The position numbers and the translations under genes were made by a program. Positions 29,117 through 31,445 of a DNA stretch of 48,999 nt are shown in pieces. Within the stretch, counting starts at the first letter, position 1, and the number at the start of each line of letters is the position of its first letter. A model generated the notes under the pieces. It saw only the letters and a list, made by a program, of their open reading frames with translations, had not been told where the DNA came from and ran no database searches. This DNA comes from Patescibacteria group bacterium (lineage in GTDB: Bacteria > Patescibacteriota > Kazan-3B-28). The DNA is taken from the NCBI GenBank assembly GCA_028717565.1, contig JAQUNP010000001.1:178997-227995 (forward strand), read 5' to 3'.

Positions 29117-29563
29117 TCATGATGCCGAGATTGAACTTCGAGCCAGTTGACTCACGTGCGATCTTCGCCCGTCCTCCTGGTCGTCATCGCTCGATGAAGT
29201 CGGGAGTTGAAGTTCAGGCACCAGTTCATTGAGCCGTCGGATAACCAACGGCTTGAGACCAGCTCGCTTGAGACGATATTGGACTGCTTCCCACATCCGC
29301 TTAGTATCAGAGATGTGGTATTTGACCACGTCCCGGTTAATTAAAACCAGTACCGGCTGAAAAATCAGCGGGGTGAGGCCATAGTCCTTAATCGTAGTCG
29401 CCATAGCGCACTCCAGACGGCACATGACCATCTGGACGGAAGTCAGTACATTTACCTCTGACGTCTTATCACGACGGTGAGGTCGATAATTGATAAAAGG
29501 TAAGCGGTAAACGGCACTGCTGACTATTGTCCACAGATTCCGAAAAAGGTTCAGGATGCTCAC
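29117..29563 (-). CDS. ORFan with its own promoter and strong SD
   Basis: GTG start preceded by AAGGAGG; promoter TTGACA-N17-TAGGAT at 29598-29626. Confidence 0.6.
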   Translation of the reverse strand: MSILNLFRNLWTIVSSAVYRLPFINYRPHRRDKTSEVNVLTSVQMVMCRLECAMATTIKDYGLTPLIFQPVLVLINRDVVKYHISDTKRMWEAVQYRLKRAGLKPLVIRRLNELVPELQLPTSSSDDDQEDGRRSHVSQLARSSISAS

Positions 29564-29640
29564 GTTGGCACCTCCTTGGTTCACAAGGGTTAGTGCCATC
29601 CTAAACCTTAAGATGCCTCTTGTCAAGGGTATCTTTGTGT

Positions 29641-29811
29641 CAGTCGGGCCGATTCCGGTTAGACCGGAACGACCTCATGAGCGTCTCTGGTTTGAATTGG
29701 TCGGGCCGATTCCGGTTAGACCGGAACGACCTCATGAGCGTCTCTGGTTTGAATTGGTCGGGCCGATTCCGGTTAGACCGGAACGACCTCATGAGCGTCT
29801 CTGGTTTGAAT
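29641..29811 (-). repeat. Three tandem 57-bp units derived from the tRNA-Pro 3' end
   Basis: Units start at 29641, 29698 and 29755 and abut tRNA-Pro at 29812; identical except for the first 3 nt of the outermost unit. Confidence 0.95.
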
Positions 29812-29886
29812 TGGTCGGGCCGACTGGATTTGAACCAGCGACCTCATCGTCCCGAACGATGCGCGCTACCCCTGCGCTACGGCCCG
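29812..29886 (-). tRNA. tRNA-Pro(CGG)
   Basis: Cloverleaf with stem CATCG/CGATG, loop TT-CGG-GA, CCA. Confidence 0.94.
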
Positions 29887-29889
29887 CCA

Positions 29890-29965
29890 TGGTGCCGATG
29901 GAGGGAGTCGAACCCCCAACCTTTCCCTTAGGACGGGACTGCTCTATCCATTGAGCTACATCGGC
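29890..29965 (-). tRNA. tRNA-Arg(CCT)
   Basis: Cloverleaf with loop GT-CCT-AA, CCA. Confidence 0.9.
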
Positions 29966-31200: not shown

Positions 31201-31277
31201 GGGGGTGTAGCTCAGCTGGTTAGAGCGTCCGCCTGTCACGCGGAAGGTCGCGGGTTCGAGTCCCGTCACTCCCGCCA
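31201..31277 (+). tRNA. tRNA-Asp(GTC)
   Basis: Cloverleaf with loop CT-GTC-AC, G73 and CCA. Confidence 0.95.
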
Positions 31278-31445
31278 CAACGAAACTGAAGTCGCATGGC
31301 TTCTGTTTTGTTGTGCATAGACACCAAAAGGACGAGACACGAAGTCCCGCCTGCCCGTTCGAAGTGAAATCTAAATCACAAGAGGCAAATGCTCTGTTTG
31401 TGATGAGATTGAACGCAGGAGGGTCACTCCCGCCAGAAGTGAAAT

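What the first reader, a model, noticed from the sequence alone, without database searches (positions are those of the whole stretch)
29641..29886. Three tandem 57-bp tRNA-Pro-derived units with a swapped T-arm
Seen: on the transcribed (minus) strand, tRNA-Pro(CGG) is followed directly by 3 copies of ATTCAAACCAGAGACGCTCATGAGGTCGTTCCGGTCTAACCGGAATCGGCCCGACCA (the last ends ...CGACTG). Each keeps the tRNA flanks ATGAGGTCG and TCGGCCCGACCA exactly. The T-arm (CTGG-TTCAAAT-CCAG) is replaced by a different perfect hairpin, TTCCGG-TCTAA-CCGGAA. A clean substitution by another self-complementary stem suggests selection on structure rather than simple slippage. Known: tRNA-3'-end repeats follow some E. 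coli tRNA genes (e.g. tyrT), and tRNA 3' ends are common integration sites. Inference: processing could release 57-nt CCA-ended tRNA-like RNAs (decoys or nuclease bait), or the units are serial integration scars.
Basis: partly seen in the sequence, partly recalled or inferred. Interest (0 to 1): 0.62.

Follow-up and report, generated by a model that had tools for sequence, protein, structure and literature searches.

The report
Relics of a tRNA-invading nuclease cassette
The three repeats behind the proline tRNA gene are most likely gene-less leftovers of a small selfish DNA cassette that lodges in tRNA genes; each carries the palindromic hairpin that accompanies a tiny GIY-YIG nuclease found next to tRNA genes in many bacterial phyla, an arrangement I could not find described.

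Summary
On the minus strand, tRNA-Arg(CCT) and tRNA-Pro(CGG) are followed by three identical 57-bp units. Each unit is a 19-nt spacer, tRNA-Pro positions 41-49, a 17-nt perfect hairpin replacing T-arm positions 50-64, then positions 65-76.

The units are not tRNA-like RNAs. They have no acceptor stem and no tRNA-model hit at E<=10.

Their anatomy matches the far junction of a small cassette. In a related Kazan-group genome (G016), the same tRNA is followed by an 81-aa GIY-YIG nuclease gene. After that comes a 3' pseudo-copy whose T-arm is replaced at the same two boundaries by TCCGTCAGCTGACGGA.

- About 50 of 80 relatives of that nuclease, across phyla, sit just behind a tRNA gene.
- About 40 of 45 downstream pseudo-copies carry a TCCG...CGGA or TCCC...GGGA palindrome.
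- ORF-less and tandem units recur in at least five lineages.
- The palindrome is a dispersed repeat (67 copies in G016). The same genome-specific version sits at a 23S rRNA helix tip.

Best reading: ORF-less cassette relics amplified by slippage. Three copies is a lower bound, because reads could not be checked. The Ssn nuclease/hairpin-repeat system is the closest known; the tRNA-linked layout seems undescribed.

The parts
29890..29965 (-). tRNA-Arg(CCT), first gene of the tRNA pair
   Evidence: ARAGORN; Rfam RF00005, 62.8 bits
29812..29886 (-). Intact tRNA-Pro(CGG) with encoded CCA. Its last 12 nt (TCGGCCCGACCA) form the first partial repeat of the array.
   Evidence: ARAGORN; Rfam 65.6 bits; TRF array starts at 29823
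29755..29811 (-). Unit 1: 19-nt spacer (29811-29793), tRNA positions 41-49 ATGAGGTCG (29792-29784), palindromic hairpin TTCCGGTCTAACCGGAA (29783-29767), tRNA positions 65-76 TCGGCCCGACCA (29766-29755)
   Evidence: Sequence; TRF; hairpin listing
29698..29754 (-). Unit 2, identical to unit 1 (hairpin at 29726-29710)
29641..29697 (-). Unit 3, identical except that it ends ...GACTG instead of ...GACCA (hairpin at 29669-29653). The odd end fits amplification from one original pseudo-copy.
29598..29626 (-). Promoter-like site TTGACA-17-TAGGAT just after the array, in front of the downstream 148-aa ORF (29562-29117, no family hit). No terminator-like site lies between tRNA-Pro and the array.
   Evidence: ORF list; Pfam and NCBIfam found nothing

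Best explanation
**What it is.** The array is a set of ORF-less relics of a small selfish cassette that lodges at tRNA genes. The full cassette, as seen in relatives, is: intact tRNA, a short leader, a roughly 80-aa single-domain GIY-YIG nuclease gene, then a pseudo-copy of the tRNA's 3' part. In that pseudo-copy one segment is replaced by a 16-18-nt GC-rich palindrome of the TCCG...CGGA family. The host keeps a working tRNA because the cassette sits between a complete copy and a disabled copy.

**What happened here (inferred).**
- The nuclease gene was lost, probably by deletion between two ATGAG microhomologies: the ORF start, and tRNA positions 41-45 of the pseudo-copy.
- That left leader + pseudo-copy as one 57-bp unit.
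- The unit was then amplified by slippage or unequal recombination between the 10-nt direct repeats TCGGCCCGAC.

**The hairpin.** It is not a decayed T-arm. It is this genome's version of a dispersed palindromic repeat that travels with these nucleases. It is most likely their DNA recognition element, as the NTS/SRM hairpins are for Ssn nucleases.

**What is shown and what is inferred.**
- Shown: the anatomy, the ORF-bearing homologue at the same tRNA, the cross-phylum tRNA-nuclease-pseudo-tRNA layout, the palindrome family and its copy numbers.
- Inferred: ORF loss, the amplification route, recognition of the palindrome by the nuclease, and that the units do nothing useful for the cell beyond being co-transcribed with the tRNA.
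For: 1. **Same tRNA, same order (G016, a Kazan-group bacterium).** The locus reads tRNA-Pro(CGG), 21-nt leader, 81-aa ORF, then CGGGTCGGTGAGGTCG-[TCCGTCAGCTGACGGA]-TCGCCCCGACCA. The ORF is GIY-YIG (PF01541, 66 bits against a 22.6-bit cut-off). The swap boundaries, after G49 and before U65, are identical to the window's.
2. **Independent recurrences of the swap.**
   - G381, a distant family of the phylum, has 2 x 50-nt tandem units with CCCCGC-AGAAT-GCGGGG.
   - Metagenome contigs behind tRNA-Pro(CGG/GGG/TGG) carry TCCCGC-CAAG-GCGGGA, CCCCGA-GGAT-TCGGGG, TCCCGCT-TATC-AGCGGGA and others.
   - One lineage has 1 or 2 copies in different assemblies (L117 against L137 and G381).
3. **Cross-phylum layout.** 61 of 80 loci encoding relatives of the G016 nuclease (35-57% identity; Bacteroidota, Ignavibacteriota, Chlorobiota, Synergistota and others) have a same-strand tRNA upstream. 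About 50 of those tRNAs end 0-140 nt before the ORF. About 40 loci have a copy of the tRNA 3' end after the ORF. About 40 of 45 such pseudo-copies carry a TCCG...CGGA or TCCC...GGGA palindrome.
4. **Tandem and ORF-less units are common.** Eight loci have tandem cassettes. L229 and L175 have an ORF-less unit before an ORF-bearing one. G016 has two tandem 85-nt ORF-less 5' units upstream of the same tRNA-Pro.
5. **The same hairpin stem marks other tRNA pseudo-copies in this genome.** These are 3 x 56 bp before tRNA-Val(TAC) with the D-arm replaced, tRNA-Gln(TTG), and just after tRNA-Ala(GGC). Four of the 8 independent TTCCGG...CCGGAA loci lie within 160 nt of a tRNA gene, a zone that makes up about 3% of the genome.
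6. **The palindrome is a dispersed repeat.** There are 67 copies in G016 and 26 in G009, against 0-1 for the reversed-pattern control.
7. **Junction.** The window reads CTC-ATGAG-GTCG and the G016 ORF start reads CTC-ATGAG-TTAC.
8. **Array ends.** Inner units end CCA and the last ends CTG, as expected if one original unit was amplified by crossing over within TCGGCCCGAC.
Against: - There is no nuclease gene at this locus. ORF loss rests on one homologue in another family and on an 8-nt junction match. The similarity of the upstream leader alone is weak (6% of shuffles do as well).
- This genome's two small GIY-YIG genes are not next to tRNAs.
- The window's hairpin shares only the outer TCCG/CGGA with the canonical palindrome. 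Its 5-nt loop makes it a non-perfect palindrome.
- It does not fit the published SRM pattern.
- No cleavage, mobility or transcription data exist.
- How an intact tRNA copy escapes the nuclease is unexplained.
- Copy number could not be verified.
- Earlier agents of this scan proposed a similar idea for other loci in this genome. That is a repeat of the idea, not independent evidence.
Confidence: 0.68

Rival explanations
1. The palindrome inserted on its own. A plain partial duplication of the tRNA-Pro 3' end arose by slippage. The genome's dispersed palindrome then landed in its T-arm hairpin, as it does at rRNA helix tips. No nuclease cassette was ever at this locus.
For: The palindrome occupies helix tips of 23S rRNA and of other hairpin repeats, with no ORF nearby. 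G004 has a 41-nt tRNA-Pro 3' copy with an unswapped T-arm. G016's two 5' units differ only in where the palindrome sits.
Against: The same tRNA in G016 has the ORF between the tRNA and the swapped pseudo-copy. The junction CTCATGAG matches that ORF's start. Across phyla the palindrome-bearing pseudo-copy is tied to the ORF.
Confidence: 0.15
2. Functional small RNAs. The units are co-transcribed with the tRNAs and cut into 57-nt CCA-ended tRNA-like RNAs. These act as decoys for tRNA enzymes or nucleases.
For: No terminator-like site lies between tRNA-Pro and the array. Each inner unit ends in CCA. The hairpin is very stable: -17.7 kcal/mol for the 38-nt core, z = -3.2.
Against: There is no 5' acceptor strand and no T-loop. 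ARAGORN and Rfam give no tRNA hit even at E<=10. Spacer and hairpin sequences are not conserved between lineages, and copy number varies. The hairpin belongs to a DNA palindrome family found in many non-tRNA contexts.
Confidence: 0.07
3. Classical att scars. Repeated integration and imprecise excision of an integrase-bearing element at the tRNA-Pro 3' end left serial attL/attR remnants.
For: tRNA 3' ends are common integration sites (PMC9897764).
Against: No integrase or island lies nearby; the neighbours are a 148-aa ORF, L28 and a site-2 protease. The identity to the tRNA is split into 9 + 12 nt by the hairpin, whereas att repeats are contiguous. Intact relatives carry only a GIY-YIG gene.
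Confidence: 0.04
4. Assembly artefact. The array, or its copy number, was created by the assembler.
For: Both perfect arrays in the genome have exactly 3.2 copies (178 and 181 bp). That is what one pass round a de Bruijn cycle gives for k of about 69-123.
Against: The unit differs from the tRNA it follows, so it cannot be a simple mis-join. Analogous arrays occur in independent assemblies (G381 and L137 with 2 copies, L117 with 1). Only the count is in doubt.
Confidence: 0.04

Closest known systems
Ssn nucleases with NTS/SRM hairpin repeats (Chenal et al. 2025, PMC11893778)
   Same: Both involve a single-domain GIY-YIG protein of roughly 80-100 aa. Both have 20-50-nt hairpin-forming repeats next to the gene and dispersed in many copies. 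Some Patescibacteria versions (TCCCGC...GCGGGA) resemble the NTS/dRS3 core, and one relative (L046) has a near-NTS flanking its GIY-YIG gene.
   Different: That paper never mentions tRNA (0 occurrences). Here the repeat sits inside a disabled tRNA copy and the gene sits directly behind an intact tRNA. The window unit and the G016 copy do not fit the published SRM pattern. I could not test whether these nucleases belong to the Ssn clade (cd10448). No nuclease gene is present at the window's locus.
Free-standing GIY-YIG homing endonucleases in tRNA gene clusters (phage T4 SegB, PMC2330249)
   Same: A GIY-YIG gene lies among tRNA genes and is presumed to spread by break repair that co-converts the flanks.
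   Different: SegB is a larger protein from a phage. As far as I know its locus has no duplicated and disabled tRNA copy and no palindrome. The proteins here are catalytic domain only.
Mobile endonuclease ORFs that create 'gene hybrids', and mobile double-hairpin elements, in fungal mitochondria (cited in PMC3787672: Beaudet 2013, Paquin 2000)
   Same: The logic is the same. The invading ORF brings its own copy of the end of the host gene, and the resident end is displaced as a pseudo-fragment. Small mobile hairpins also land in rRNA variable regions.
   Different: Those targets are protein-coding genes in organelles, and the nuclease families and hairpins differ. This comparison rests partly on my memory of the cited papers.
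Partial tRNA copies left by integrase-mediated integration (attL/attR; PMC9897764)
   Same: A complete tRNA gene plus a 3' fragment of it as direct repeats.
   Different: Those repeats are contiguous, lie kilobases apart, come with an integrase, and have no arm replacement.
Tandem repeats ending in the tRNA 3' end behind E. coli tyrT (rtT; from memory)
   Same: Tandem units, each ending with the 3' end of the preceding tRNA.
   Different: Those units are 178 bp, with no hairpin-for-arm swap and no link to a nuclease cassette.
REP/BIME/REPIN elements with RAYT transposases
   Same: A dispersed short palindrome whose stem is kept and whose loop varies within a genome, linked to one dedicated nuclease gene.
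   Different: The enzyme family differs (HUH/Y1 against GIY-YIG). REPs are intergenic and are not embedded in tRNA pseudo-copies or rRNA helix tips.

Membership tests
tRNA or tRNA-like RNA | Cloverleaf with an acceptor stem and T-loop, recognised by tRNA models | tested here: not met
   ARAGORN finds only the intact tRNAs. Rfam RF00005 gives no hit on 29560-29830 even at E<=10. The unit folds as one extended hairpin with no 5' acceptor strand.
Ssn / SRM system (PMC11893778) | Single-domain GIY-YIG gene next to the repeat | tested here: not met
   No such ORF lies in or beside the array. It is met at the homologous locus in G016 and at about 50 of 80 related loci.
Ssn / SRM system (PMC11893778) | The repeat fits the SRM degenerate motif HGTCWY-N(0-2)-YYVSBRH-N(0-5)-WNVSBRG-N(0-2)-RNCYNB | tested here: not met
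   Neither strand of the window unit nor G016's pseudo-copy matches. Only the copy after tRNA-Ala(GGC) does. The genome has 4 matches against 0-7 in shuffles.
Ssn / SRM system (PMC11893778) | The hairpin repeat is dispersed in many copies in genomes that hold the nuclease | tested here: met
   TCCGYY-N4-RRCGGA: 67 copies in G016 and 26 in G009, controls 0-1. G000 has 12 TTCCGG...CCGGAA and 5 TCCCGG...CCGGGA; the 5-bp version gives 17 against 0-5 in shuffles.
Ssn / SRM system (PMC11893778) | Site-specific cleavage of single-stranded DNA at the repeat | not testable with these tools
   This needs purified protein and oligonucleotides.
Free-standing GIY-YIG homing endonuclease (Seg-type) | GIY-YIG catalytic domain plus a separate DNA-binding domain (about 200 aa or more) | tested here: not met
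   The cassette proteins are 80-95 aa and consist of the catalytic domain only. The closest solved structures are the 96-107-aa UPF0213 proteins 1YWL and 1ZG2.
Free-standing GIY-YIG homing endonuclease (Seg-type) | Cuts the cassette-free allele and spreads by gene conversion | not testable with these tools
   Filled (G016) and empty (G017, G023) sites exist in one genus, but no cleavage or cross data are available.
Integrase att duplication at a tRNA gene | Integrase gene and island between a full tRNA and a contiguous identical 3' fragment | tested here: not met
   There is no integrase among the neighbouring ORFs. The units are 57 bp apart. The identity is split into 9 + 12 nt.
tRNA-linked GIY-YIG cassette with a palindrome-bearing pseudo-tRNA (the layout defined here) | A pseudo-copy of the adjacent tRNA's end, with an internal segment replaced by a TCCG...CGGA-type palindrome | tested here: met
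   The window units carry T-TCCG-G tctaa C-CGGA-A in place of positions 50-64. The boundaries are the same as in G016, G381 and the metagenome contigs.
tRNA-linked GIY-YIG cassette with a palindrome-bearing pseudo-tRNA (the layout defined here) | Nuclease ORF between the intact tRNA and the pseudo-copy | tested here: not met
   Only a 19-nt spacer is present. I interpret this as ORF loss (the junction CTCATGAG). ORF-less units also occur in L229, L175, G381 and G016.

The most novel reading that the evidence does not exclude
The palindrome and the roughly 80-aa GIY-YIG nuclease form a two-part mobile system that aims at hairpin-forming DNA of structured-RNA genes. It would swap native stem-loops (tRNA D- and T-arms, 23S rRNA helix tips, tips of other hairpin repeats) for its own palindrome, exactly at the base of the stem. 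The tRNA-linked form would survive because it carries or creates a spare intact tRNA copy. Palindrome copies within a genome would be kept alike by nuclease-driven gene conversion. That would explain why G016 has the identical 16-mer in its pseudo-tRNA-Pro and in its 23S rRNA, while G000 has its own TTCCGG version in both. This would be a widespread mobile-element type, spanning many phyla, that has not been recognised.
Probability: 0.3. Interest if true: 0.85.

Novelty: new variant of a known kind. Interest (0 to 1): 0.66.

Why it matters
- **A new source of tRNA fragments.** If the reading holds, a very common class of 'hypothetical GIY-YIG/UPF0213' genes is a family of selfish cassettes specialised on tRNA genes across many phyla. 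They would be a source of tRNA gene fragments and tandem pseudo-tRNA arrays distinct from integrases and CRISPR. Such fragments confuse tRNA annotation.
- **A link to Ssn nucleases.** The work ties the recently described Ssn nuclease/hairpin pairs to a concrete genomic target.
- **Palindromes in functional rRNA.** The same palindrome is written into functional rRNA helices. This bears on how ultra-small genomes tolerate and spread repeats.
- **Possible tools.** A roughly 80-aa nuclease with a 16-nt palindromic site could be useful in the laboratory.
- **This locus.** The array is probably neutral baggage. It is also a hotspot for copy-number change next to an essential single-copy tRNA.

Tried and rejected
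- **Relatives with the unit.** I searched 60 relatives. The only partial hits (G007, G009) lie in a recG-like coding sequence (RIVPVYPE) and are chance matches.
- **Exact unit elsewhere.** It was absent from metagenome contigs, phage records and viral contigs.
- **Other assemblies of the strain.** A look-up of the exact L28 protein found none on record.
- **Rfam.** I scanned the window and nine other loci. Nothing matched the units or the roughly 80-nt element near tRNA-Gln and tRNA-Ser.
- **Relic pattern in metagenomes.** It returned 54 hits, about 42 of them chance matches in GC-rich coding DNA. I kept only those with a tRNA-Pro, an AT-rich spacer and a perfect hairpin.
- **Conserved leader.** I tested whether the 19-nt spacer is a conserved cassette leader. 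tRNA-to-ORF spacers are not conserved across phyla, and many hold terminators. The similarity to G016's leader is weak apart from CTCATGAG.
- **SRM membership.** The window unit does not fit the motif.
- **Ribozyme idea.** I compared the element behind tRNA-Gln and tRNA-Ser with the hammerhead core by eye. It did not fit, and Rfam found no family for it.
- **Serial invasion as the source of the three units.** I rejected this. All 57 positions are identical, yet the last unit ends CTG. Two changes there and none elsewhere fit amplification of one unit better.

Full report
**1. The observation**

On the minus strand the window holds tRNA-Arg(CCT) at 29965-29890 and tRNA-Pro(CGG) at 29886-29812. 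Three head-to-tail 57-bp units follow, running down to 29641. Tandem Repeats Finder gives period 57, 3.2 copies, 100% matches, score 362.

Each unit is ATTCAAACCAGAGACGCTC + ATGAGGTCG + TTCCGG-TCTAA-CCGGAA + TCGGCCCGACCA. The last unit ends GACTG. In tRNA numbering the unit keeps positions 41-49 and 65-76 and replaces 50-64. These are the inner four pairs and the loop of the T-arm. The retained G49.U65 pair extends the new 6-bp stem.

The unit is unique in the genome. The genome is only 537 kb in two contigs, which is the size of an ultra-small Patescibacteria (CPR) genome.

**2. The units are not tRNA-like**

- ARAGORN and the Rfam tRNA model see only the two intact genes.
- A permissive Rfam scan of 29560-29830 at E<=10 gives no tRNA hit.
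- The unit has no 5' acceptor strand. It folds as one extended hairpin, GGUCG-UUCCGG...CCGGAA-U-CGGCC.
- There is no terminator-like site between tRNA-Pro and the array.
- A promoter-like TTGACA-17-TAGGAT follows the array and serves the next ORF.
- The array is therefore probably read through from the tRNA promoter, but nothing marks it as a processed RNA.

**3. The pattern is genome-wide**

I scanned all 40 tRNA genes of the genome for nearby copies of their own ends.

- tRNA-Val(TAC) is preceded by three perfect 56-bp units, GGGCGCGTAG + TTCCGG-CGGG-CCGGAA + CAGTC.... This is the tRNA's 5' end with the D-arm replaced by a hairpin of the same stem, again keeping the outer pair (G10-C25).
- tRNA-Gln(TTG) has TGGGGCGTAG + TTCCGG-TGGA-CCGGAA + CAAGGCAAC upstream.
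- tRNA-Ala(GGC) is followed by GTCTTCG + TTCCGG-CTTA-CCGGAA.

The genome has 12 TTCCGG...CCGGAA hairpins. Eight of them, at four independent loci, lie within 160 nt of a tRNA gene.

**4. The intact form of the element**

Small GIY-YIG genes are numerous in this family, with up to 14 in a 700-kb genome. Seven of about 26 lie within 150 nt of a tRNA gene.

Three relatives show a 5' pseudo-piece of a tRNA interrupted by a palindrome, then a GIY-YIG ORF, then the intact tRNA:
- tRNA-Asn in G007;
- tRNA-Ser in G004;
- tRNA-Pro(TGG) in G005.

The decisive case is G016, 'candidate division Kazan bacterium RIFCSPLOWO2_01_FULL_48_13'. Its locus reads:

intact tRNA-Pro(CGG) - ATGCCAAACACGGGGGATCTC - an 81-aa ORF - CGGGTCGGTGAGGTCG-[TCCGTCAGCTGACGGA]-TCGCCCCGACCA.

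The ORF is a GIY-YIG domain (66 bits against a 22.6-bit cut-off). The pseudo-copy has its T-arm replaced at exactly the window's boundaries. Species of the same genus (G017, G023) have the empty site.

**5. The swap recurs**

- A pattern search in 401 genomes of the phylum found true hits only in G000, G016 and G381. G381 has tRNA-Pro(CGG) followed by two 50-nt units with CCCCGC-AGAAT-GCGGGG.
- A stricter pattern in metagenome contigs gave about a dozen genuine cases behind tRNA-Pro(CGG), (GGG) and (TGG). All have the same boundaries but unrelated perfect hairpins.
- One lineage has one copy in one assembly and two copies in two others.

**6. The layout spans phyla**

- Of 80 genome loci encoding relatives of the G016 nuclease (35-57% identity), 61 have a same-strand tRNA upstream. 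These loci come from Bacteroidota, Ignavibacteriota, Chlorobiota, Synergistota, Verrucomicrobiota, Babeliales and others.
- In about 50 of them the tRNA ends 0-140 nt before the ORF.
- About 40 have a copy of the tRNA 3' end after the ORF.
- About 40 of 45 such pseudo-copies carry a palindrome of one family: TCCGCCAGCTGGCGGA, TCCGTCAGCTGACGGA, TCCGTTAGCTAACGGA or TCCCGA...TCGGGA.
- The palindrome replaces different parts in different lineages: the anticodon-stem 3' strand plus variable loop, the T-loop, the T-arm, or (in L185) ten nucleotides of an otherwise full-length tRNA copy.
- Eight loci have tandem cassettes. L229 and L175 have an ORF-less unit in front of an ORF-bearing one.
- The window's hairpin, T-TCCG-G...C-CGGA-A, shares the outer TCCG/CGGA. 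L202 has TCCGGC-AGCT-GCCGGA.

**7. The palindrome is a dispersed repeat that also sits in rRNA**

TCCGYY-N4-RRCGGA occurs 67 times in G016 and 26 times in G009, against 0-1 for the reversed-pattern control.

I aligned three 23S rRNA regions where G000 has the hairpin.
- At one helix tip G016 has TCCGTC-AGCT-GACGGA, the same 16-mer as in its pseudo-tRNA-Pro.
- At that tip G000 has TTCCGG-TTAAA-CCGGAA.
- Other relatives have unrelated short tips there.

In G016 the palindrome also caps NTS-like hairpins (CGTCATTCTGG...CCAGAATC). It also marks two tandem 85-nt ORF-less 5' pseudo-units upstream of the same tRNA-Pro. Those two units differ only in where the palindrome sits.

**8. How the window's array most likely arose**

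- The G016 ORF starts CTC-ATGAG-T. The window's junction reads CTC-ATGAG-GTCG.
- tRNA-Pro of G000 has ATGAG at positions 41-45. A deletion between the two ATGAG copies would therefore remove the ORF and leave exactly the 57-bp unit.
- The rest of the leader is only weakly similar (6% of shuffles do as well).
- The inner units end CCA + spacer and the last ends CTG. This is the signature of amplification by crossing over or slippage within TCGGCCCGAC, starting from tRNA + spacer + one pseudo-copy.
- Serial invasions would not leave 57 of 57 identical positions together with two changes at the very end.
- Both arrays in the genome have exactly three units. That is the minimum an assembler would output for any longer array, so the count is a lower bound.

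**9. Comparison with what is known**

- **Ssn system (closest).** In PMC11893778, single-domain GIY-YIG proteins flanked by dispersed hairpin repeats cut single-stranded DNA at those repeats. That paper never mentions tRNA. The window unit does not fit its SRM pattern. I could not place these nucleases in the Ssn clade; the closest solved structures are the UPF0213 proteins 1YWL and 1ZG2.
- **Phage T4 SegB (PMC2330249).** This is a GIY-YIG homing endonuclease among tRNA genes, but it is a larger protein, and I know of no pseudo-tRNA or palindrome at its locus.
- **Fungal mitochondria.** Endonuclease ORFs there create 'gene hybrids', and mobile double-hairpin elements occur (PMC3787672). These share the logic of rebuilding the invaded gene.
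- **Integrase- and CRISPR-derived tRNA fragments (PMC9897764).** These differ in every structural respect.
- Five further literature searches found no description of the tRNA - GIY-YIG - pseudo-tRNA layout.

**10. Earlier notes of this scan**

Other agents proposed tRNA-invading nuclease cassettes for the tRNA-Gln and tRNA-Ala loci of this genome, and flagged the tRNA-Val array. I treated these as leads. The evidence above was gathered here: G016, G381, the metagenome contigs, the 80 loci, the copy numbers and the 23S comparison.

**11. Verdict**

The 'tRNA-like RNA' half is not supported. The array is best seen as amplified, ORF-less relics of a tRNA-linked GIY-YIG/palindrome cassette (confidence about 0.68). 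The main rival is that the palindrome landed in a plain duplication (0.15).

Three things remain open:
- how the nuclease and the palindrome work together;
- why the swap is so exact;
- how the intact tRNA copy is spared.

Noticed in passing
window 31201-31435 (+): tRNA-Asp(GTC) (31201-31277) has a 13-nt copy of its 3' end (TCACTCCCGCCA...) at about 31423-31435. Before it lies ...GCCCGTTCGAAGTG..., which looks like its T-loop, interrupted by a roughly 60-nt insert. This seems to be a second pseudo-tRNA relic in the same window, of a different insert type.
   Followed up: partly
genome C1:131713-131890 (outside the window): Three perfect 56-bp units lie between tRNA-Leu(AAG) and tRNA-Val(TAC). 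Each is the tRNA-Val 5' end with the D-arm replaced by TTCCGG-CGGG-CCGGAA. This mirrors the finding on the 5' side.
   Followed up: partly
genome C1 about 49700-49870, C2 about 119850-119950, C1 about 334050-334140: A conserved structured module of about 70-130 nt is inserted in the T-loop of 3' pseudo-copies of tRNA-Gln(CTG), tRNA-Gln(TTG) and tRNA-Ser(TGA). It reads GGTTCGTATACGATG...GGGACGAGTGGAGGG-[covarying hairpin CCCGCATC-GTA-GATGTGGG or CCCACC-GGA-GGTGGG]-AAACCT. It has no Rfam family. A similar insert follows tRNA-Pro(CGG) in G013 (L083).
   Followed up: partly
genome C1:166675, 167607, 169043 (23S rRNA); L241 (G016): Three helix tips of this genome's 23S rRNA carry the TTCCGG/TCCCGG hairpin. 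G016 has its own palindrome TCCGTCAGCTGACGGA at one of the same tips. G022 has an insert of about 165 nt there, and G007 has a long TCCCGCC...GGCGGGA hairpin at another tip.
   Followed up: partly
L262 (G016:C1 about 69773-70004): In G016, NTS-like hairpins (CGTCATTCTGG...CCAGAATC) have the 16-nt palindrome at their tip, so there is a hairpin within a hairpin.
   Followed up: no
genome C1:90640-90960: This genome's closest relative of the cassette nuclease (about 87 aa, 39% identical to the G016 protein) is flanked by roughly 20-bp inverted repeats (CCCCGTAGAGAATTTTAGAA ... TTCTAAAATCTTCTACAGGG). It is not next to a tRNA.
   Followed up: no
L185 1424-1518 and 1759-1853: ARAGORN calls palindrome-bearing pseudo-tRNA-Val copies 95-nt 'tRNA-Thr(AGT)' genes. 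This shows how these relics can be mis-annotated as tRNAs.
   Followed up: no
window 29117-29562 (-): The 148-aa ORF just after the array has its own promoter-like site and a strong ribosome-binding site, but no Pfam or NCBIfam match. G004 has a similar small ORF near its tRNA-Ser/tRNA-Pro cluster.
   Followed up: no
genome C2:75705 (-): CGTCATTCCCGTGAAAACCGGAATCTAG is a near-perfect Neisseria-type NTS/SRM motif in this Patescibacteria genome.
   Followed up: no
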